NCBI GenBank assembly: GCA_045126855.1
Contig: JBGVPG010000032.1
Span: forward strand, 5,274 to 69,273
DNA length: 64,000 nt
Source: Eubacteriales bacterium
Lineage (GTDB): Bacteria; Bacillota; Clostridia; Oscillospirales; CAG-272
Direction: 5' to 3'
Shown: positions 20,862 through 57,556 of the stretch, piece after piece
Layout: the number at the start of each line of letters is the position of its first letter
How positions within the stretch are numbered: the first letter of the stretch is position 1
Translations under genes and position numbers: made by a program
Notes under the pieces: model-generated
Told to the model about the DNA's origin: nothing
Seen by the model: only the letters and a program-made list of their open reading frames with translations
Database searches by the model: none

Positions 20862-21263
20862 ATGTATACAAGTGCTAAACCCTATTTCTACGGAACCGGT
20901 AGAAGAAAGAAGTCCGTTGCTAGAGTTCGTCTCTATCCCGGCACCGGCGCTATCACCATCAACGGCAGAGATATCGCTGATTACTTCGGTCTTGAGACCA
21001 TGAAGCTTATTGTTAACCAGCCCTTCGGCGTTACCGATACCGTTGGCAAGTTCGACGTTGTTGTTAACGTAAACGGCGGTGGCTTCTCCGGCCAGGCAGG
21101 TGCAATCCGTCACGGTGTTTCTCGTGCACTCCTTTCTGCAGACGAGACCTACAAGCCCCTCCTCAAGAAGGCCGGCTTCCTTACTCGTGATCCTCGTATG
21201 AAGGAGAGAAAGAAGTACGGACTCAAGGGCGCTCGTCGTGCTCCTCAGTTCTCGAAGAGATAA
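20862..21263 (+). CDS. rpsI: 30S ribosomal protein S9
   Basis: [24 protein letters not shown]... ending in RRAPQFSKR. The ATG at 20862 follows a GGGAGG RBS. Confidence 0.95.
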
Positions 21264-21284
21264 TTTCGACCTTTGGTCGAATAC

Positions 21285-21318
21285 AAAAAATGCTCAACTT
21301 CGGTTGGGCATTTTTTAT
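21285..21318 (+). terminator. rplM-rpsI intrinsic terminator
   Basis: Stem TGCTCAAC (21291..21298), loop TTCG, stem GTTGGGCA, then TTTTTT. A smaller hairpin, TTCGACC-ttt-GGTCGAA, precedes it. Confidence 0.8.
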
Positions 21319-21342
21319 TATCTCTTCGACGGACTGAGGAGC

Positions 21343-21525
21343 AGTTATATTCGCCTGCAGCGAGTGATATTGCTACGCAGTGATATTTGGCTTACGCCAA
21401 GTGATATTCGCTTTGCGAGTTTTAGTGGCGAATATAATATCACTGTGAGCATAATTTGCAATTCAAATTTGCGAACAATATCACTACGAGCAAAGCGAGT
21501 AATATCACTGCGAAGCAATATCACT
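21343..21525. repeat. Array 1 of mini-hairpin + ATATCACT units (4 inverted + 4 direct)
   Basis: AGTTATAT at 21343; AGTGATAT at 21363, 21379 and 21400; ATATCACT at 21437, 21478, 21502 and 21518. Each abuts a short GC-clamped palindrome. Confidence 0.85.
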
Positions 21526-21594
21526 ATGCATAATCGATAAAAATTTGCTTTAATCAAAAAGGGCGGTTCAATTTGTAAAAACTCCGCCGTCAAT

Positions 21595-21725
21595 ATAATC
21601 AAACGAAGCGAATCGACGAGTTTGCTCGTCAGCGAGCGAGTGCAGATTGCTCTGCGAACGTTTTGCGAGTAGCAAAACAAGGTGCGTCGTACCGCCTCGC
21701 AAGAGGCAAAGTTCGCAATGAGTAT
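21595..21725 (+). repeat. 131-bp structured repeat, copy A
   Basis: It aligns along its full length with 22631..22761 at roughly four identities in five (by eye). Hairpins are GACGAG-tttg-CTCGTC, GTTTTGC-gagta-GCAAAAC and GCCTC-gcaa-GAGGC. Confidence 0.8.
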
Positions 21726-21798
21726 TTACTTTTTGCCGTTTTTATGGTATAATACAACTAATCGATAAACTTGAATTTGACGAGGGATGTGGTTTTTA

Positions 21799-22119
21799 AT
21801 GATAGATGACAAGATTAAAAATAGCATAGTAGAAAAATTTGAAATAGCTTCTAAGGAATTCAACTTTAATTTCGTTACTCCATATTGTACAGGCAAAAAT
21901 CATAAGTTGTGTTTTTTCGGTTATTTGTTTAAAGATAATCCTGAAAAAGGGGTAATAATTGATATAATTTGTGACTTTAAAGATAGAAATATCGAAAAGC
22001 GAAAGTATTGTGAAGATAACAATCTGTTTTATAGCTGTTTGTATATAGAACCTTTACTTGGAGAATACAAACGTAGCTATTTTAGTAAAATGCTAAAAGA
22101 TTGGAGATATGAGTTTTAA
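21799..22119 (+). CDS. Small hypothetical protein (AT-rich cassette gene 1)
   Basis: ORF 21787..22119. K/N/F/Y-rich with A/T-ending codons, unlike the neighbours. Start uncertain (21787 or 21799). Upstream GAATTTGACGAGG box. Confidence 0.5.
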   Translation: MIDDKIKNSIVEKFEIASKEFNFNFVTPYCTGKNHKLCFFGYLFKDNPEKGVIIDIICDFKDRNIEKRKYCEDNNLFYSCLYIEPLLGEYKRSYFSKMLKDWRYEF

Positions 22120-22157
22120 GGTATTAAACGAATAAGAATTTGACGAGGTGATGACAG

Positions 22158-22544
22158 ATGAAATTTAACGATTATTGGAAAATTCCAACAAATGCAAAGC
22201 AATATTTTTCACCCAAATATGAAAAAAAGTTAAAAGAGAAATATGGTGTGTGGTATACTTTTCACACTTTTTTGTCGATTTTAATACTCTTTATTCCTTT
22301 GGTAATTTTCTTTGTTATTTCTCCATCTAATGCATTTAATCCAAGCACTCAAATGGATAATATTATTGGTGGTATAGGTGGAATTATTGGGGTAATAGGA
22401 TCATTCTCTATCGGTGTTGGTTTGGTAAATGTTTTTATGTGTTTTATCAAACAGTATTTAGGTCATTGGGTTACTATTCTTACAATTGTTGGCGGAATAC
22501 TATTAGATATATTGGCCTTATTTGTGTTTTCGTTTGTTAGTTAA
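22158..22544 (+). CDS. Small hypothetical membrane protein (AT-rich cassette gene 2)
   Basis: 128 aa with three hydrophobic segments. It has the same GAATTTGACGAGG box (with a GAGGTGA RBS) upstream. Confidence 0.55.
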   Translation: MKFNDYWKIPTNAKQYFSPKYEKKLKEKYGVWYTFHTFLSILILFIPLVIFFVISPSNAFNPSTQMDNIIGGIGGIIGVIGSFSIGVGLVNVFMCFIKQYLGHWVTILTIVGGILLDILALFVFSFVS

Positions 22545-22630
22545 ATTCCAATTTATCGAGCCGAATAGGCGTTGAGTGCCCGTGTGATTTTGGTGCAACA
22601 CTTTATGTTAGCGTACTCACGATATTCACG

Positions 22631-22761
22631 ATAATCAAATAAAGCGAGTCGGCAAGCTTGCTTGTCAGCGAGCAAGTGTAGATTGCTCCTCGAGTGTTTT
22701 GCAAACAGCAAAACAGAGTGCGTAGCACCACCTCGCAAGAGGGGTAACTCGCAAGGAGCAT
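22631..22761 (+). repeat. 131-bp structured repeat, copy B
   Basis: Hairpins are GGCAAG-cttg-CTTGTC (with a G.T pair), GTTTTGC-aaaca-GCAAAAC and CCTC-gcaa-GAGG, at positions equivalent to copy A. Confidence 0.8.
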
Positions 22762-22913
22762 ATCAAACAGTATTGCTAAAACTCCAAGAGAAAATTAAAA
22801 GTTCATAACGAAAAGATATACATAATTTCCCTACCCCGTAATTTTGTATTTACAAACAGTTCCTTTTGTGATATAATAGGACAGACAATTTTTCTAACCG
22901 ACAGGAGTGCATC

Positions 22914-23819
22914 ATGGGATTAATTGAAAATGCCATTATATCTATCACAAAACTGAAAATGAAAAACGCCTTTAACCCCGGGAAGGTGGAAGAGGTGCCT
23001 TCCGACGGTTTAAAGGAATACAGAGATATTCCCTATACCAATCGCGCAGGAAAAGAATTACTAATGGATATATTCGAGCCAATCGCACCCGAAGGCACAG
23101 AGCTCCCCGTTATTGTTAACATTCACGGTGGTGGATTGATTGGCGGAAGCAAAAACCTTTCCGTAGGATTTTGCAGGCAGCTGGCGAAAAGAGGATATTT
23201 GGTTTTCTCTTTGGAATACCGTCTTATTCCTGACGTTCGTGTATACGAGCAGTTTGACGACGTGTGCGCAGGAATGGATTGCATCGGCAGAAAGCTTGTA
23301 GATTTTGACGTTGATTTCACGAGAATTTACATGGTTGCCGAAAGCGCAGGCGCATATCTCGCAACATACGTTGCCGCAATGAAGAAGTCAAAGGCATTGC
23401 AGGACGCAATAGGCTATCCGCCCACGAGCATGGTCTTCAAGGCCATGGGGTTAATCAGCGGAATGTTCTACACTAGGAGAAATGACATGCTGGGTCGCTT
23501 TTTGTCCCCATCAATATACGGCAAGGATGAGCGTAGTTTAGCAATGGCAGAATATACAAATCCCGAACACCCCGAGATCATCCACAACATCCCTCCCTGC
23601 TACCTTATAACCAGCAAGGCAGATATGCTTGAAAGATATACACTCGACTTTGCAGGAGAGCTCGGCAACAAGGGTGTTGAGCATCATTTAAGGCATATGG
23701 GAAGCGATCCAAAGCTTTTGCACGCCTTCCCCGTTCTAAACGCAACATTGCCCGAGAGCGTGAGAGTGATCGATGAAATCGTCGACTGGTTCAAGGCACA
23801 CGAACCCACGACACTTTGA
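22914..23819 (+). CDS. Alpha/beta hydrolase (esterase/lipase, HGGG type)
   Basis: 301 aa with oxyanion motif NIHGGGLIGG and nucleophile elbow VAESAGAY. Candidate promoter TTTACA-17-TATAAT at 22849..22877. Confidence 0.8.
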   Translation: MGLIENAIISITKLKMKNAFNPGKVEEVPSDGLKEYRDIPYTNRAGKELLMDIFEPIAPEGTELPVIVNIHGGGLIGGSKNLSVGFCRQLAKRGYLVFSLEYRLIPDVRVYEQFDDVCAGMDCIGRKLVDFDVDFTRIYMVAESAGAYLATYVAAMKKSKALQDAIGYPPTSMVFKAMGLISGMFYTRRNDMLGRFLSPSIYGKDERSLAMAEYTNPEHPEIIHNIPPCYLITSKADMLERYTLDFAGELGNKGVEHHLRHMGSDPKLLHAFPVLNATLPESVRVIDEIVDWFKAHEPTTL

Positions 23820-30051: not shown

Positions 30052-30101
30052 GTTTGCGACCGAAGGCGTAGAAATCTACGTCGAGAGTTAAGCAAACGGC
30101 A
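30052..30101. repeat. 50-bp GTTTGCGACCGAAGGCGTAG...GCAAACGGCA element, copy 1
   Basis: Near-identical to 37672..37721. Nested hairpins: outer GTTTGC/GCAAAC and inner CGTAG-aaat-CTACG. It sits between the 9-bp inverted repeats TAAGGATGA (30020) and TCATCCTTA (30119). Confidence 0.8.
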
Positions 30102-37538: not shown

Positions 37539-37576
37539 AAAAAGGACGAGATATCACTCTCGTCCTTTTGTTTTAT
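37539..37576 (+). terminator. Intrinsic terminator whose 8-nt loop is ATATCACT
   Basis: Stem AAAGGACGAG (37541..37550), loop ATATCACT (37551..37558), stem CTCGTCCTTT, then TGTTTT. Confidence 0.8.
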
Positions 37577-37671: not shown

Positions 37672-37721
37672 GTTTGCGACCGAAGGCGTAGTTACCTACG
37701 CTGAGAGTTCAGCAAACGGCA
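37672..37721. repeat. 50-bp GTTTGCGACCGAAGGCGTAG...GCAAACGGCA element, copy 2
   Basis: Matches 30052..30101. The inner hairpin loop differs (ttac vs aaat) while the stem is kept. Confidence 0.8.
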
Positions 37722-52490: not shown

Positions 52491-54872
52491 TTATTCTGTG
52501 CATTTTGCCATTACGGTCTCAGAATCCACTCCATCGGGAACGAAAATGACCTCTACGTCTGCCCACAGATACCTGTAAAGGTAAAGATTTATACTCTCCC
52601 ACTGCTCCTCTGTGCCCTCGAAGAAGATGGTGTGAATTTTCTCATTCATATGGAATGCGTCATTCTTGATCTCTTTAATACTGCCCGGCAACCAGAGAAC
52701 CTGAAGATTTGACGCACCGCTGAAATCGCCGGTATCAATTACCTCACGTCCATCAGGAACCCGAATGGAAAGAAGACCGGGGCTGTACGTGGAGTCAATC
52801 CTAAGTCCTGTTAGATCGTAATCCTCATACAGCTCCTCGGGAAGGATCAGATGCTTAATGCCGCTGTTGTTAGTTCTTACCAGACCGCCCTCTAAAAATT
52901 CGATCTCATAATTGCTATGAGGTCCAAAGACAAGCCTTCTCAGGCAACCGCATCTCTTGCATTTTCCAACCGATGCTTCGGAAGTATTTCCGACGTCAGA
53001 GGTATACTCCACAGAGTACCACTCATTGCTATGCCAAAGCGAGCTGGTCTTATCTGTAAGATACTCTACACCACAAATCTTACACTTCCACTTTTTGTAT
53101 CCACCGGTCAGGCAATCAGCTTTCTTCTCCTCTACCATCTCATACTCGTGGACGATAAAGGTTCCGTTAACGATCTTTGCCTCGTGATATTCGTCAAGGA
53201 GCTTGCCCGGGAAGGTATAAAACTTCGTGATAAATCCTGTTCCATTAGAAGTGCAGAGAATATATGTACCGCAAGCCTCGTCATAATAATAAATCTTCTT
53301 TATGTTTTTGCTTTCTGTCAATGTTCGGTATTTTCTGAAAAGGATTTCTATAGCCTCGGCATCATTGAGTGCAACTGTGTAATTGCTTATGGGAAGACCG
53401 TCCTCGGAAAGGTGAATCTTCTTACCAAGAGCTGTCCAGAGGCTCTTGTCTATACCTGCAAAATTGATGCCGGCAATAATAGCGTCCAGTCGCTCCTCTG
53501 TAATATCAAGGAAGTTCTCGCCCTCGGGCATGGTAAGCTGCTTACCTGCCTTGTCAAGCTTCGTGTAGAAGCTTATGAGATCGGTAAGGCTAACGTCCTC
53601 GTCAACGTACTTATCAATGGAGAAGAAGTAACCGCCACGATTCTTGTAGAAGCCTGCCTTACCCTCCATAAGCATGTCGGGATCCTCGGCGTCCTCGGAG
53701 GAATAGTACTCAAGGCGGTAGTCACCGTCCTTTGTGTAATGCTCAAGAGTAAAATAGAACATTTCCTCCTCACCCTCATGAGGCTTCGAGGTAAAGGTCA
53801 GGGTGGTATTTGTCTTTCCCTTCTCCTCTGTCCTGACGTACTCAAGAGAGGCGCTGTCGGTCACGCGGTTATGAGAGGGACCCGTGGTGGTCTCCATAGT
53901 AAGAGTCAGGGTGTCCTTATTCTTTTCGGTGGTGATCTGAAGGTCATACTCAATATTTTCAATATTGTTGACCTTATTGTGCTCTACGCTCAAATGAGCG
54001 CTTCTCAGCATATTCTTTTCCACCGTATATGTAAGCTCAAAGGTGTAGCCCTTAACCGACTCGTTAAACTGCTTTTTAATTTTGTCAAGTGCCTCGTCGT
54101 CAAGAGAAAGCCTTTCCTTGAGCTTCCCGTCACCCTTTAACTCGTCAACTGCGATCTCAACAAGCTTTTTCAGGGTCTCCTCTTCAAGAGTTATTGCAAC
54201 GGTGTTTTTATCTACAATAACGGTTTTCTGCTTAATTTGGTCTTTAATCTTAGGCAGAAGGCGGTTGTAGAACTCTCGAAGCTCCTCTGTGGCGTCATCA
54301 TCGTCGCCCTCAAGCGCCGATTTGATCTGATTATAAGCATCCTCGCTCATAGCGAATTTCGAGTCACTTGTTGGGGCGAAAATCGAGCCTTCCAGCTCCT
54401 CTAGGATATTGTCCAGAGGCATATAGAGACAGAACTGCTTTTGGTCCTTGTCGTAGCCGATAACGTAGAGCTTTCCGTCGGCGTAGGCAATTCCTCCACC
54501 GTGCTCGTTTTCATCAACCTTAATGAGATAATCCATTCTCTCCTTCAGGTCGTCTCCATCGCCGTATCCAAGGGCCTCCATCTGTATGGAAACGTCGGAC
54601 GTGCGGTTAGCCTCCTCGCCATCAAGCTTGAAATCAATTCTCGACCTGTAACCGTTCTCCGCCAGCTTCTCGCCTATGCGCAAAAGCTCATCGGTGTCGA
54701 TGAAAAGCTCATTTACGGTGTTCACGAGGAAGTGGGTACTGCCTGCACCCCAGGGGATCAGCAGACAGCCTGCCACAACCAGGCATACGCCCACAAATGA
54801 GGCAAGGCTGATGATTACGATCTTCTTGTGCAGCTTCACAAAACCGACAATAGTGTTAAATAGATTTTTCAT
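52491..54872 (-). CDS. Large hypothetical membrane-anchored protein with a C4 Cys cluster and one C-terminal BspA-type LRR unit
   Basis: 793 aa with an N-terminal TM (IVIISLASFVGVCLVVAGCLLI), CKICG...CKRCGC, and a C-terminal ASNLQVLWLPGSIKEIKNDAF. Confidence 0.7.
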   Translation of the reverse strand: MKNLFNTIVGFVKLHKKIVIISLASFVGVCLVVAGCLLIPWGAGSTHFLVNTVNELFIDTDELLRIGEKLAENGYRSRIDFKLDGEEANRTSDVSIQMEALGYGDGDDLKERMDYLIKVDENEHGGGIAYADGKLYVIGYDKDQKQFCLYMPLDNILEELEGSIFAPTSDSKFAMSEDAYNQIKSALEGDDDDATEELREFYNRLLPKIKDQIKQKTVIVDKNTVAITLEEETLKKLVEIAVDELKGDGKLKERLSLDDEALDKIKKQFNESVKGYTFELTYTVEKNMLRSAHLSVEHNKVNNIENIEYDLQITTEKNKDTLTLTMETTTGPSHNRVTDSASLEYVRTEEKGKTNTTLTFTSKPHEGEEEMFYFTLEHYTKDGDYRLEYYSSEDAEDPDMLMEGKAGFYKNRGGYFFSIDKYVDEDVSLTDLISFYTKLDKAGKQLTMPEGENFLDITEERLDAIIAGINFAGIDKSLWTALGKKIHLSEDGLPISNYTVALNDAEAIEILFRKYRTLTESKNIKKIYYYDEACGTYILCTSNGTGFITKFYTFPGKLLDEYHEAKIVNGTFIVHEYEMVEEKKADCLTGGYKKWKCKICGVEYLTDKTSSLWHSNEWYSVEYTSDVGNTSEASVGKCKRCGCLRRLVFGPHSNYEIEFLEGGLVRTNNSGIKHLILPEELYEDYDLTGLRIDSTYSPGLLSIRVPDGREVIDTGDFSGASNLQVLWLPGSIKEIKNDAFHMNEKIHTIFFEGTEEQWESINLYLYRYLWADVEVIFVPDGVDSETVMAKCTE

Positions 54873-54931
54873 AATAGTCTTACCTCCTTTTTCTTACTTT
54901 CATTATATCGCATATACAGTCACTTGTCAAG

Positions 54932-54968
54932 AAAAAAAGACACGAGAAAATTTTCTCGTGTCTTTTTT
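54932..54968. terminator. Palindromic terminator downstream of yebC (AGACACGAGAAAATTTTCTCGTGTCT core)
   Basis: Perfect 13-bp arms at 54938..54950 and 54951..54963, flanked by A and T runs. Confidence 0.85.
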
Positions 54969-54971
54969 AAC

Positions 54972-55076
54972 GTTTGCGTAGCAAACATATCACTCGACTG
55001 TTGTCGAATATCACTTTTGCAAAGCAAAAATATCACTATTGCGAAGCAATAATATAACGTTTGCCATAGGCAAACA
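54972..55076. repeat. Array 2 of mini-hairpin + ATATCACT units (5 units, one orientation)
   Basis: GTTTGC-gta-GCAAAC ATATCACT; CGAC-tgtt-GTCG AATATCACT; TTTGC-aaa-GCAAA AATATCACT; ATTGC-gaa-GCAAT AATATAAC; GTTTGCC-ata-GGCAAAC. Confidence 0.85.
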
Positions 55077-55078
55077 TC

Positions 55079-55804
55079 TTAGTTGTCCCAGTTGTGGTAA
55101 ACGGCGTTTACGTCATCATCCTCGTTGAACTTGTCGAGCATCTTTTCCATATTGGCGATGTCGTCCTCGTTGATAAGCTCAACGTAGGTGGAGGGAACCT
55201 TTGCAAGGTCAGCGGTATTGATCTGATATCCGAGACCGATGATGGCGTCACGAACGGTGTCAAGATCAGCAGGATCGGTGTAAATGGTGTACTCACCCTC
55301 GTCGCTTCTGATATCCTCAGCGCCTGCCTCAAGTGCGTCCTCCATAATCTTATCCTCGTCGATCTCCTCGTCCTCGTCAACGATGGTGATAACGCCCTTC
55401 TCCTCAAAGAGGTAGCCTACGCAGCCGTTCTGTCCAAGGTTTCCGCCGTACTTAGAGAATGCGGCACGAACGTTACCTGCGGTACGGTTACGGTTATCCG
55501 TCTGTGTCTCAACGATGATTGCAACACCGCTGGGGCCGTAGCCCTCGTATACGATCTCCTCGAAGTTGATATCCGAGCTGTCGGTAAACTTCTTGATAGT
55601 ACGCTGGATGTTATCGTTAGGCACGTTATTTGCCTTTGCCTTCGCAATAAGGTCACGAAGCTTAGAGTTGTTGTTGGGGTCGGGACCGCCTGCCTTAATG
55701 GCAACAGCCATTTCCTTACCGATCTTGGTAAAGATCTTGGCCTTGGCAGCGTCTGCCTTCTCCTTCTTATGCTTGATATTATTCCACTTAGAATGTCCGG
55801 ACAT
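55079..55804 (-). CDS. yebC: YebC/PmpR family DNA-binding transcriptional regulator
   Basis: MSGHSKWNNIKHKKEKADAAKAKIFTK..., the canonical YebC N-terminus. 241 aa. Confidence 0.9.
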   Translation of the reverse strand: MSGHSKWNNIKHKKEKADAAKAKIFTKIGKEMAVAIKAGGPDPNNNSKLRDLIAKAKANNVPNDNIQRTIKKFTDSSDINFEEIVYEGYGPSGVAIIVETQTDNRNRTAGNVRAAFSKYGGNLGQNGCVGYLFEEKGVITIVDEDEEIDEDKIMEDALEAGAEDIRSDEGEYTIYTDPADLDTVRDAIIGLGYQINTADLAKVPSTYVELINEDDIANMEKMLDKFNEDDDVNAVYHNWDN

Positions 55805-55822
55805 ATATATTTCTCCTATAAA

Positions 55823-57556
55823 TTAAATCTTTTCGGGGGTCTGCATACAGATGAGATGCAGTGCGGTACGAAGCACCTGATTGGTTGCCTCGGTGAGAGC
55901 GATCCTCGACTGCTTCAGAGCCTCGTCGTCACAGTTTGCAATAGAGCAATCGTGGTAGAAGCGATTGAATGCTGCGCAGAGGTCGAGAATGTATCTGGTC
56001 ACGAGAGAGGGCTCGGACTCGGCAAGTGCAGCGTTAACCTTCTCGGGGAATACGGCAAGGGTCTTTGCAAGCTCGATCTCCTGCTCACCAAGGGTGGCGG
56101 TAGTCATAGCCGCTCCCCTTCCCACCTTCTCAAGGATAGAGCAGGTACGGGCGTAGGTATACTGAGCGTAAGGACCTGTGTTACCGTCGAAGGAAAGTGC
56201 GTCCTCCATCATAAAGTTGATGTCACGCATACGGTTGTTGGAGAGGTAGTAGAAGACGATAGCGCCAACGCCAACCTTCTCTGCAATAGCCTGAAGCTCT
56301 GCCTCATCGGGGTGCTTATCACGGGCTATCTCCTTAACACGGGCAATAGCCTCGGCAAAGAGGTCCTTCAGAAGGATTACGTTACCCGTTCTGGTGGCAA
56401 GCTTCGCACCGTTGATGGAAACCGTGCCGTAGGGAACGTGGAGAAGCTGATCGTGCCACTCGTAGCCCATAAGCTCAACGACCTTGAACCACTGTGCAAA
56501 GTGGAGAGACTGCTGTGCGGCGGTGACGTAGATCGCCTTATCGAAATTATACTCGCCCTTACGGTAAACCGCAGCGGCAATATCACGGGTAGGATAGAGA
56601 GTGGAGCCGTCACGCTTCAGAATCAGGCAGACGGGCATATTCCACTTATCAAGGTTGACGATAGACGCACCGTCGTCGATCTCAAGCAGACCCATATCAC
56701 GGAGCTTCTGCACCTGGGCAGGCATCTTGTCGGTATAGAAGGACTCGCCCTTGTAGGAATCGAACTCGATATTCAGGAGCTTATAGGTCCTCTGATACTC
56801 CTCAAGGCTGACGTCAACGAACCAGCGCCAGAGGGCGATGTTCTCCTCGTCAAATTCCTCGAGCTTCTTGAACTCGGCACGGGAGGCGTCTGCAAGAGGC
56901 GAGTGCTTATCCTCGTTTGCCTCCTCCTCGGCCTTGATCTCGTTATTGATACGGACGTAGAGCTTTACAAGCTCGTCAACACCGCCCTGCTCTATGGTAG
57001 CCTTATCGCCCCAGAGCTTATATGCGGTAATGAGCTTACCGAACTGAGTACCCCAGTCGCCAAGGTAGTTGATACCAACGCACTTGTAGCCTGCGAACTC
57101 GTGAAGAAGCTTCAGGCTGTGGCCGATAACGGTTGTACCGAGGTGGCCGATGTGGAAGGGCTTTGCCACGTTGGGAGAGGAGTAGTCGAGAACGACGGTC
57201 TTGCCAACACCGTTCATAGGAGAGCCATAGCTGTCAGCAAGTGTGAAGACGTCCGAAACTACACGGCGCGCAAAGGCAGTGCCGTCGATTTTAAAGTTAA
57301 GATAACCGCTGATAGCGGTGATGGAGGAGAACTCCTCACACTTGATAGCCGCCGCAAGGGTCTCGGCAATCTGCACGGGAGAACGACGCAGACTCTTTGA
57401 CAGACGGAAGCAAGGGAGGGCGAGATCGCCCATAGTTTTATCGGGGGGATATTCCAGCATGGAGAAGATCTCCTCAGCCGAGAGAAGTCCCGTACCAAAG
57501 CCCGCCTCTACTGCATCGGCAATAAGGGCGGCGGTCTTTTTCTTCAAAGTAAGCAT
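55823..57556 (-). CDS. argS: Arginine--tRNA ligase
   Basis: 577 aa with the HIGH region SSPNVAKPFHIGHL and a C-terminal anticodon-binding domain. Confidence 0.95.
   Translation of the reverse strand: MLTLKKKTAALIADAVEAGFGTGLLSAEEIFSMLEYPPDKTMGDLALPCFRLSKSLRRSPVQIAETLAAAIKCEEFSSITAISGYLNFKIDGTAFARRVVSDVFTLADSYGSPMNGVGKTVVLDYSSPNVAKPFHIGHLGTTVIGHSLKLLHEFAGYKCVGINYLGDWGTQFGKLITAYKLWGDKATIEQGGVDELVKLYVRINNEIKAEEEANEDKHSPLADASRAEFKKLEEFDEENIALWRWFVDVSLEEYQRTYKLLNIEFDSYKGESFYTDKMPAQVQKLRDMGLLEIDDGASIVNLDKWNMPVCLILKRDGSTLYPTRDIAAAVYRKGEYNFDKAIYVTAAQQSLHFAQWFKVVELMGYEWHDQLLHVPYGTVSINGAKLATRTGNVILLKDLFAEAIARVKEIARDKHPDEAELQAIAEKVGVGAIVFYYLSNNRMRDINFMMEDALSFDGNTGPYAQYTYARTCSILEKVGRGAAMTTATLGEQEIELAKTLAVFPEKVNAALAESEPSLVTRYILDLCAAFNRFYHDCSIANCDDEALKQSRIALTEATNQVLRTALHLICMQTPEKI

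What the first reader, a model, noticed from the sequence alone, without database searches (positions are those of the whole stretch)
54972..55076. Five tandem hairpin + ATATCACT units fill the gap between the yebC stop codon and its terminator, with perfect stem covariation
All five units share one orientation with a 21-23 nt period. They are GTTTGC-gta-GCAAAC+ATATCACT, CGAC-tgtt-GTCG+AATATCACT, TTTGC-aaa-GCAAA+AATATCACT, ATTGC-gaa-GCAAT+AATATAAC and GTTTGCC-ata-GGCAAAC+ATC. Every stem has a different sequence, yet every stem is perfectly complementary. This pattern suggests selection on structure rather than on sequence. The array starts 2 nt after the yebC stop (55079) and ends 3 nt before the palindromic terminator (54932..54968). 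It should therefore be transcribed as the yebC 3' UTR, reading hairpin + AGTGATAT on the mRNA strand. The last two units have decayed constant parts (AATATAAC, ATC), which suggests growth or decay from one end. The stem GTTTGC/GCAAAC is also the outer stem of the 50-bp element at 30052 and 37672, which hints that the families are related.
Basis: seen in the sequence. Interest (0 to 1): 0.65.

Follow-up and report, generated by a model that had tools for sequence, protein, structure and literature searches.

The report
Solo Gut-1 hairpin repeat after yebC
The five hairpins after yebC are a real copy of "Gut-1", a repeat of gut Clostridia already catalogued in Rfam but unexplained; it is scattered through this genome rather than tied to yebC, and its complete relatives flank small four-helix-bundle genes that may encode its binding partner.

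Summary
At 54972-55078 five perfect hairpins alternate with ATATCAC(T), which reads GTGATAT in yebC sense. This is far beyond chance.

It is not new and not specific to yebC. It passes the gathering threshold of Rfam RF01706 (Gut-1 RNA: 53.0 bits, threshold 50). That motif was described in 2010 and has no known function.

The same design forms 63 arms at about 40 intergenic loci in this 1.62-Mb genome, in at least six heptamer classes. Ten close relatives lack it after yebC. Seven cattle-gut metagenomes carry it with the unit number fixed at five.

All five PF05635/TIGR02436 genes in the genome are flanked by arrays, each gene with its own heptamer. Across 41 related genomes arrays co-occur with PF05635 (p = 5e-5), and heptamer class follows the protein tree.

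My best reading is a gene-less solo arm of such a cassette, riding in the yebC 3' region. Its heptamers are probably recognition sites for the matching four-helix-bundle protein.

Loop types and stem mismatches favour folding of the strand opposite to Rfam's orientation and to the yebC mRNA. Whether the active form is RNA or single-stranded DNA remains open.

The parts
54972..55078 (-). One-armed Gut-1 array. In yebC sense it reads five hairpins joined by GTTATAT, then GTGATAT three times, then a terminal GTTAAAA. The Rfam RF01706 match covers 54982-55060.
   Evidence: 53.0 bits, gathering threshold 50. Fold z-scores from -4.5 to -5.8.
55059..55075 (-). Hairpin 1 in mRNA order: GUUUGCC-UAU-GGCAAAC. 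It is nearly identical to hairpin 5.
   Evidence: The loop is polymorphic between strains at 55067-68.
55052..55058 (-). Variant linker GTTATAT (ATATAAC on the + strand). Other strains have the canonical GTGATAT here.
   Evidence: 55056 A>C in runs X5, X6, X15, X17 and X20.
54987..55037 (-). Three canonical AGTGATAT linkers (54987-94, 55008-15, 55030-37), with hairpins CGAC-aaca-GTCG and TTTGC-ttt-GCAAA between them.
   Evidence: The hairpin TTTTGCTTTGCAAAA recurs in arrays of other genomes.
54972..54986 (-). Hairpin 5: GUUUGC-UAC-GCAAAC, which abuts the terminator.
54932..54968 (-). Intrinsic terminator of yebC (A-run, 12-bp stem, T-run). It pre-dates the array: relatives without the array keep the same stem ends (AAAAGACAC...GTGTCTTTT).
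   Evidence: L007, L012, L013.
55079..55804 (-). yebC (TACO1/YebC family) coding sequence. The array begins 3 nt after its stop codon.
   Evidence: Pfam PF01709 E = 5e-60 and PF20772 E = 2e-30.
54902..54930 (-). Sigma-70-type promoter (TTGACA, 17 nt, TATAAT) of the downstream 793-aa gene. It is not part of the array.
   Evidence: Read directly from the sequence. RNA contig depth is zero between the terminator and that gene.
21342..21551 (.). Second copy of the same family in the window, in two-armed (mirrored) form after rpsI. The GTGATAT arm lies at 21342-21412 (+) and the ATATCAC arm at 21437-21551.
   Evidence: RF01706 scores 55.2 and 26.5 bits. Sequence.

Best explanation
The array is a solo, one-armed copy of the Gut-1 heptamer-hairpin repeat (Rfam RF01706). 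This is a dispersed intergenic repeat of uncultured gut and rumen Clostridia.

Shown:
- It scores as a family member.
- It belongs to a family of 63 arms in at least six heptamer classes in this genome.
- It is absent from the orthologous yebC site of close relatives.
- It is stable within the species.
- Complete relatives are cassettes in which a PF05635/TIGR02436 four-helix-bundle gene is flanked or preceded by two inverted arms carrying a heptamer private to that gene.

Inferred:
- Solo arms such as this one are gene-less derivatives of those cassettes. The relation resembles that of a MITE (a gene-less miniature element) to its parent.
- This arm lodged between the yebC stop codon and a pre-existing terminator.
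- The constant heptamers, held single-stranded between small stable hairpins, are recognition sites for the matching multimeric PF05635 protein. Here that would be the C15 paralogue, whose own arms read AGTGRTATT and AGTTGTATT.
- The array is a passenger at yebC and at most stabilises the 3' end incidentally.
- The strand under structural constraint is the ATATCAC strand, which is the template strand at this locus.

Whether the active form is RNA or single-stranded DNA is not resolved.
For: Membership: RF01706 scores 53.0 and 55.2 bits against a threshold of 50.

Dispersal: 30 strict arrays against 0 in shuffles. There are 63 arms, 62 of them intergenic, with a mode of 4 linkers per arm.

Not tied to yebC: relatives L007-L016 lack it, and three of them (L007, L012, L013) keep a recognisably related terminator. 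A second orthologous comparison (C18 against G054) also shows lineage-specific presence.

PF05635 link:
- All 5 PF05635 genes in the genome have arrays within 100 bp, each with its own heptamer.
- 39 of 65 PF05635 loci in 28 genomes have a 6-mer repeated at least 6 times, against 9 of 260 other intergenic regions (p = 2e-24).
- Arrays co-occur with PF05635 in 22 of 27 genomes that have the gene and 2 of 14 that lack it (p = 5e-5). Among other-family genomes the counts are 6 of 6 and 1 of 10 (p = 9e-4).
- Heptamer class changes 16 times on the protein tree, against 21-28 in 300 shuffles.
- The geometry of solo two-armed elements equals that of the gene cassettes of their class.
- The C15 protein matches PDB 2RLD (E = 2e-28, five chains) and TIGR02436.

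Strand: GNA triloops number 45 on the ATATCAC strand and 1 on the other; GNRA tetraloops 31 and 0. Tandem G.A and G.T pairs also lie on the ATATCAC strand.
Against: - No binding has been shown. Adjacency and co-occurrence could reflect shared mobility rather than recognition.
- Matching of heptamer class to a resident gene is incomplete. The ATATGAATT-type class (ATGAATT) has no gene in this genome. G006 and G026 hold many arrays without an identified matching gene. The tree signal is partly co-inheritance.
- The strand evidence conflicts. As RNA, the yebC-sense strand of this array is 10 kcal/mol more stable, through G.U pairing of linker halves. All six one-armed GTGATAT/GTGAAAT arrays are in gene sense.
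- No clean empty site or target duplication was found, so insertion is inferred and not demonstrated.
- The modal arm has four heptamers, which does not obviously fit a pentamer.
Confidence: 0.55

Rival explanations
1. One reading: the array is a yebC 3'-UTR RNA element selected for structure. Stacked hairpins on the mRNA would block 3'-exonucleases or bind an RNA-binding protein, and so set yebC mRNA stability.
For: - It lies between the stop codon and the terminator in yebC sense.
- The sense RNA folds to -39.7 kcal/mol with z = -5.8.
- One RNA contig runs from yebC into the array, to 55030.
- All six one-armed GTGATAT/GTGAAAT arrays are in sense orientation.
- The array is unchanged in seven strains.
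Against: - It is absent from the orthologous site in ten close relatives.
- The same element sits at about 40 unrelated loci, including upstream of genes and as mirrored pairs.
- Loops and mismatches favour the other strand.
- Four of five RNA runs show contigs ending at the stop codon.
Confidence: 0.15
2. A REP/BIME-like DNA repeat: small palindromes with a fixed flanking word, spread as folded single-stranded DNA by a Y1 (RAYT or IS200-type) transposase. On this view the four-helix-bundle genes are unrelated cargo.
For: - It is intergenic, high-copy, often lies at terminators, and forms mirrored pairs.
- C-GNA-G triloops of the type I recall as unusually stable in DNA hairpins lie on one strand.
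- The genome has one Y1 transposase.
- Arrays show a weak association with Y1 (12 of 15 genomes with it, 12 of 26 without; p = 0.05).
Against: - The array-richest genomes G020, G023 and G027 have no Y1 gene.
- Stems vary freely, whereas REP stems are conserved within a genome, and there is no GTAG word.
- PF05635 is a far stronger correlate and lies directly adjacent to arrays.
Confidence: 0.12
3. A stand-alone small RNA gene, as Rfam labels Gut-1 ('Gene; sRNA'), transcribed on the GUGAUAU strand and acting in trans.
For: - The Rfam and Weinberg 2010 classification.
- Contigs resembling the left arm of the rpsI-side copy reach a summed depth of 330-900 in one metatranscriptome.
Against: - There is no promoter of its own: it starts 3 nt after a stop codon, and no promoter above chance was found at the sister copy.
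- A genome holding 63 arms in six classes, many of them mirrored, does not look like a small-RNA gene family.
- The loop asymmetry points to the other strand.
Confidence: 0.08
4. A functionless by-product: units multiply by replication slippage, and stems stay perfect because quasi-palindromes are corrected by template switching, not because the structure is selected.
For: - Tandem amplification of a 3-hairpin block to more than 20 units in G023:C68, and duplicated neighbouring units elsewhere.
- 110 of 122 stems are perfect.
Against: - This does not explain invariant heptamers within an array.
- It does not explain the strict one-strand bias of loop types (TTC 39, GAA 0; p = 4e-12).
- It does not explain the C:G closing pair or the tie to PF05635 genes.
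Confidence: 0.1

Closest known systems
Gut-1 RNA motif (Rfam RF01706; Weinberg et al. 2010, Genome Biol 11:R31, PMC2864571)
   Same: The architecture is the same: hairpins of variable sequence separated by a conserved (G)UGAAAU-type linker, with C-UUC-G and UUGC loops. The source is uncultured gut bacteria. Both copies in the window score above the gathering threshold.
   Different: - The linker is GUGAUAU rather than GUGAAAU.
- There are five hairpins rather than three.
- The host is a ruminant-gut Clostridia lineage, whereas the paper reports 'human gut only'.
- It sits in a 3' UTR and in mirrored pairs, and behaves as a dispersed multi-class repeat linked to PF05635 genes.
- The structural signal favours the strand opposite to Rfam's.
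PF05635 / TIGR02436 four-helix-bundle proteins (23S rRNA intervening-sequence protein; DGR Avd; PDB 2RLD)
   Same: The candidate partner genes belong to this family. From my own knowledge, the 23S intervening-sequence ORFs also sit between inverted repeats, and Avd is a nucleic-acid-binding pentamer.
   Different: The assembly has no reverse transcriptase, so this is not a DGR. The genes lie between protein-coding genes or beside a tRNA, not inside 23S rRNA. No function or sequence-specific binding is known for the family.
REP/BIME elements and their RAYT transposases
   Same: Both are short intergenic palindromes in many copies, often after genes and near terminators, and often in inverted pairs.
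   Different: The stems here are not conserved in sequence. The constant part is a heptamer between hairpins rather than a GTAG next to one. The Y1 transposase is absent from the array-richest genomes.
Integron attC sites (analogy only, from my own knowledge)
   Same: Recognition elements whose structure is conserved while their sequence is free, and which are read on one folded single strand.
   Different: There is no integrase and no cassette-array organisation. The units are much smaller and tandem. This was not tested here.

Membership tests
Gut-1 RNA motif (RF01706) | Covariance-model score at or above the curated gathering threshold (50 bits) | tested here: met
   53.0 bits at 54982-55060 (-) and 55.2 bits at 21342-21412 (+).
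Gut-1 RNA motif (RF01706) | Three or more hairpins separated by a conserved (G)UGAAAU linker | tested here: met
   Five hairpins. The linkers are GUGAUAU three times and GUUAUAU once, which differs from the consensus at one position.
Gut-1 RNA motif (RF01706) | Stems vary in sequence but keep their pairing | tested here: met
   All 5 stems here are perfect. So are 110 of 122 in the genome and 170 of 225 unique spacers from 41 genomes. This is variation between paralogous units.
Gut-1 RNA motif (RF01706) | Acts as a stand-alone small RNA on the annotated strand (Rfam type 'Gene; sRNA') | tested here: inconclusive
   There is no promoter of its own. One RNA contig enters from yebC. GNA/GNRA loops and G.A/G.T pairs lie on the opposite strand, but the sense RNA is the more stable fold for this copy.
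REP/BIME with RAYT | Palindrome sequence conserved within a genome, with a GTAG-type word at its 5' side | tested here: not met
   Stems differ from unit to unit and there is no GTAG.
REP/BIME with RAYT | A cognate Y1 transposase in the genomes that carry the repeat | tested here: not met
   Y1 is present in only 12 of 24 array-bearing genomes. G020, G023 and G027, which are rich in arrays, have none.
Diversity-generating retroelement (Avd accessory protein) | A PF05635-like gene next to a reverse transcriptase and template/variable repeats | tested here: not met
   No PF00078 match anywhere in the 93%-complete assembly.
23S rRNA intervening sequence carrying a PF05635 ORF | The ORF lies inside a 23S rRNA helix, between inverted repeats | tested here: not met
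   The five genes lie between protein-coding genes or beside tRNA-Leu. Only the inverted flanks are shared.
CRISPR array | Constant repeats of 23-50 bp, unique non-palindromic spacers, and cas genes nearby | tested here: not met
   The constant part is 7-9 nt, the variable part is always a palindrome, and the period is 22 nt. No cas gene appeared among the neighbours scanned.

The most novel reading that the evidence does not exclude
Gut-1 would be one class of a large superfamily of heptamer-hairpin arrays. Each class would be the cognate ligand of one paralogue of the orphan PF05635/TIGR02436 four-helix-bundle family. The biologically folded strand would be the complement of the one Rfam annotates: a purine-rich strand with C-GNA-G and GNRA loops and tandem G.A pairs. 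That strand would act either as the 5' leader RNA of the cassette gene or as single-stranded DNA. Solo arms in host 3' UTRs, such as the one after yebC, would then be kept only in the orientation that hides the active strand from transcription.
Probability: 0.3. Interest if true: 0.7.

Novelty: new member of a known kind. Interest (0 to 1): 0.45.

Why it matters
Taken alone, the yebC array is one more copy of a catalogued motif. Its value lies in what the genome around it shows.

Gut-1 has had no function or genomic context since 2010, and PF05635 has had none since, as I recall, the 1990s. Here the two appear as matched pairs: five paralogues, each with its own heptamer. That turns two orphan families into one testable protein-nucleic-acid system.

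The one-strand bias of loop types also suggests that the Rfam entry may describe the wrong strand, or even the wrong nucleic acid. These repeats are very abundant in rumen and gut metagenomes and break assemblies there, so recognising them also helps with MAG annotation.

Tried and rejected
- **Replication orientation.** GC skew around the 23 one-armed arrays is small and of mixed sign, so it says nothing.
- **A promoter at the centre of two-armed elements firing into the ATATCAC arm.** The centres are class-specific, and the promoter scan gives 1 hit against 1.1 expected. Dropped.
- **Phage origin.** Of 119 viral-contig matches to GTGATAT x3, only 2 have palindromic spacers.
- **Kinship with the 50-bp element at 30052 and 37672.** That element is a separate 7-copy family, never adjacent to arrays. 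It shares only the 6-mer GTTTGC/GCAAAC.
- **Empty-site search.** At yebC and at C18 relatives have unrelated sequence, so no insertion boundaries or target duplication could be defined.
- **Unit-number variation between strains.** None was seen in seven DNA runs.
- **Strand-specific RNA evidence.** All RNA runs are kept as contigs without direction.
- **My first gene caller** picked antisense shadow ORFs and was re-seeded with verified genes. **My first array detector** was too loose, then too strict, and was replaced by a 6-mer count with a null.
- **Defence system.** PADLOC has no match for the PF05635 protein.
- **Resemblance of TATCACT to the WATCACW heptads** bound by the omega repressor of inc18 plasmids. 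This is recalled from memory and was not tested. The other heptamer classes do not fit it.

Full report
**1. The observation**

Read in yebC sense (- strand), it follows the TAA stop at 55079-81 after 3 nt:

GUUUGCC-UAU-GGCAAAC / GUUAUAU / UAUUGC-UUC-GCAAUA / GUGAUAU / UUUUGC-UUU-GCAAAA / GUGAUAU / UCGAC-AACA-GUCGA / GUGAUAU / GUUUGC-UAC-GCAAAC / GUUAAAAAA

The last words run into the intrinsic terminator at 54932-68. A TTGACA-17-TATAAT promoter for the next gene follows.

All five stems are perfect, and the first and last are nearly identical. TRF reports a period of 22. AGTGATAT occurs 12 times in the window against 1.65 expected. The array folds far better than shuffled sequence on either strand and with either parameter set (z from -4.5 to -5.8).

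**2. Identity**

A scan of the window against Rfam places both AGTGATAT clusters in RF01706, the Gut-1 RNA motif. The yebC array scores 53.0 bits, and a second array after rpsI (21342-21412) scores 55.2, against a gathering score of 50. The model reads linker / hairpin / GUGAAAU / hairpin / GUGAAAU / hairpin / UGAAAU. Our copies differ by one base in the linker.

Weinberg et al. (2010, PMC2864571) found Gut-1 in human-gut metagenomes only. They rated it a likely non-coding RNA and gave no function or context. I found no later functional work.

**3. A dispersed, multi-class repeat, not a yebC element**

The window's genome is a 1.62-Mb, 93%-complete MAG of an uncultured Clostridia lineage from ruminant guts.
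- A linker-agnostic detector finds 30 strict arrays in it and none in five shuffles.
- A class-aware scan finds 63 arms at about 40 loci. Of these, 62 are intergenic, and the modal arm has four linkers.
- Linkers fall into classes: GTGAAGT (28 arms), AATGATG (15), GTGATAT (10), ATGATAT, ATGAATT, GTGAAAT.
- Many loci are mirrored two-armed elements.
- Arrays sit at contig ends unusually often, as expected of repeats that break assemblies.

Ten relatives with 86-96% identical YebC have no array after yebC. Three of them (L007, L012, L013) keep a terminator with the same stem ends. They and L010 fill the spacer with a different repeat. A second orthologous comparison (C18 array against G054) also shows lineage-specific presence. 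Neither comparison gave a clean empty site.

**4. Within-species behaviour**

Seven independent cattle-gut DNA runs carry the array. Contigs in X6, X15 and X17 span it without indels, so the unit number is fixed at five.

The point differences are informative:
- 55056 A>C, in four DNA runs and the RNA run X20, restores the canonical ATATCAC in the 'decayed' fourth linker.
- 54992 A>G turns one linker into ATATCGC, which is another class.
- 55067-68 alters a loop.
- Only one change (55070, in X6) hits a stem, and it is not compensated.

K-mer depth over the central units is 10-60 times the flanks, which shows how abundant the family is in those communities.

**5. Transcription**

One metatranscriptome contig (X20) runs from yebC to 55030, inside the array. 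In four other RNA runs the yebC contigs stop at 55082-55113, and none covers 54860-54991. Co-transcription is therefore shown only in part. Contigs carry no strand, and no raw-read RNA run exists for the locus.

At the rpsI-side copy, contigs matching the left arm reach a summed depth of 330-900 in one metatranscriptome. Gut-1-type arrays are therefore present in RNA pools, though their strand and origin are unknown.

**6. The link to PF05635**

Earlier notes of this scan suggested an Avd-like partner. I tested the idea independently.

In this genome:
- There are five PF05635 genes. All five are directly flanked or preceded by arrays, each with its own heptamer: C29 AATGATG, C17 TGAAAT, C19 ATGATATA, C4 GTGAAGT, and C15 AGTTGTATT plus AGTGRTATT.
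- The C15 gene is therefore the candidate partner of the yebC-type arrays.
- The paralogues are only 47-54% identical to C15. No sixth copy exists, so the ATGAATT class has no resident gene.
- The geometry of solo two-armed elements equals that of the gene-bearing cassettes of the same class. This is the relation of a gene-less derivative to its parent.

Across 41 related genomes:
- 39 of 65 PF05635 loci show a 6-mer repeated at least six times in their flanks, usually as two inverted arms upstream. The figure for other intergenic regions is 9 of 260 (p = 2e-24).
- GTGATAT or GCGATAT arrays occur in 22 of 27 genomes with PF05635 and 2 of 14 without (p = 5e-5). In genomes from 16 other families the counts are 6 of 6 and 1 of 10 (p = 9e-4). 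Reversed-pattern controls are zero throughout.
- Heptamer class changes 16 times on the protein tree, against 21-28 in 300 shuffles. Sister clades differ by single-base steps.

Caveats: co-inheritance contributes to the tree signal. Some array-rich genomes (G006, G026) lack an identified matching gene, although several of their genes sit at contig ends.

Other properties of the partner protein:
- The C15 protein matches PDB 2RLD (five chains, function unknown) and TIGR02436.
- The assembly has no reverse transcriptase, so it is not a DGR Avd.
- PADLOC has no match.

A Y1 transposase, which would be the partner under a REP-like model, is a much weaker correlate. It is missing from the array-richest genomes.

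**7. Which strand folds?**

Oriented by the linker, the loops are strongly one-sided.
- In this genome TTC outnumbers GAA 39 to 0, TAC outnumbers GTA 6 to 0, and TTAC outnumbers GTAA 5 to 0.
- In 225 unique spacers from 41 genomes, TNC triloops outnumber GNA 45 to 1, and the complements of GNRA tetraloops outnumber GNRA 31 to 0.
- The closing pair is almost always C:G.
- The commonest stem irregularity is a tandem T.C/C.T. On the other strand this is a tandem G.A, as in ACGAGC-AAA-GCGAGT.
- G.T wobbles number 13 on the ATATCAC strand and 6 on the GTGATAT strand.

So the ATATCAC strand carries C-GNA-G triloops, GNRA tetraloops, tandem G.A pairs and wobbles. From my own knowledge these are the classic stabilising features of folded single strands, and C-GNA-G is especially stabilising in DNA. 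The Rfam consensus shows the same loops on its complement.

Against this, the yebC-sense RNA of this copy is 10 kcal/mol more stable. UAU and GUG halves of successive linkers pair through G.U and lengthen every hairpin. That feature is specific to the GUGAUAU linker.

All six one-armed GTGATAT/GTGAAAT arrays lie in gene sense (p = 0.03). This fits either an RNA role on that strand or selection against exposing the other strand. I leave the question open.

**8. Verdict**

This is a real, ordinary member of a known but unexplained family. Its most probable nature is a gene-less solo arm of a PF05635 cassette riding in the yebC 3' region.

The wider picture is worth an experiment, but none of it is shown biochemically: matched pairs of heptamer arrays and four-helix-bundle paralogues, with a structural signal on the unannotated strand.

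Noticed in passing
window 30052-30101 and 37672-37721; also L007, L010, L012, L013 downstream of yebC: The 50-bp nested hairpin (GTTTGC...CGTAG-nnnn-CTACG...GCAAAC) is a separate repeat with 7 copies in the genome. In four relatives, copies of what looks like the same family (judged by eye, not aligned) fill the very spacer between the yebC stop and terminator that holds the Gut-1 array here. Its GTAG-containing stem, together with the genome's single Y1 transposase (C21:14018-14374), makes it a REP/RAYT candidate.
   Followed up: partly
window 21263-22914: My codon-usage gene caller finds no confident gene in this 1.65-kb stretch after rpsI, and the two ORFs there have no Pfam match. RNA contigs from related strains cover 21532-21603 and 21723-21795 and skip 131 bp (21592-21722). 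This may be an unannotated transcript with an insertion polymorphism.
   Followed up: partly
window 37541-37568: The constant word ATATCACT forms the 8-nt loop of a terminator-like hairpin (GGACGAG-ATATCACT-CTCGTCC followed by a T-run). Here the heptamer is presented in a loop rather than between hairpins.
   Followed up: no
G023:C68:8833-9331 (related genome): A GTGATAT array of more than 20 units made by tandem amplification of a three-hairpin block. Unit number can therefore expand greatly in this family, although it is fixed at the yebC locus.
   Followed up: no
window 55094-57400 (+): A 768-aa open frame lies antisense to the Pfam-verified yebC and argS genes. It is a long shadow ORF and fooled a naive longest-ORF gene caller.
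   Followed up: yes
G000:C19:613-1300 (locus L004): One PF05635 cassette, with its two ATGATATA arms, sits directly beside a tRNA-Leu(CAG) gene. A TTGACA-17-TATAAT promoter overlaps the last heptamer, so in that cassette the arms lie upstream of the gene's promoter and not in its leader.
   Followed up: partly
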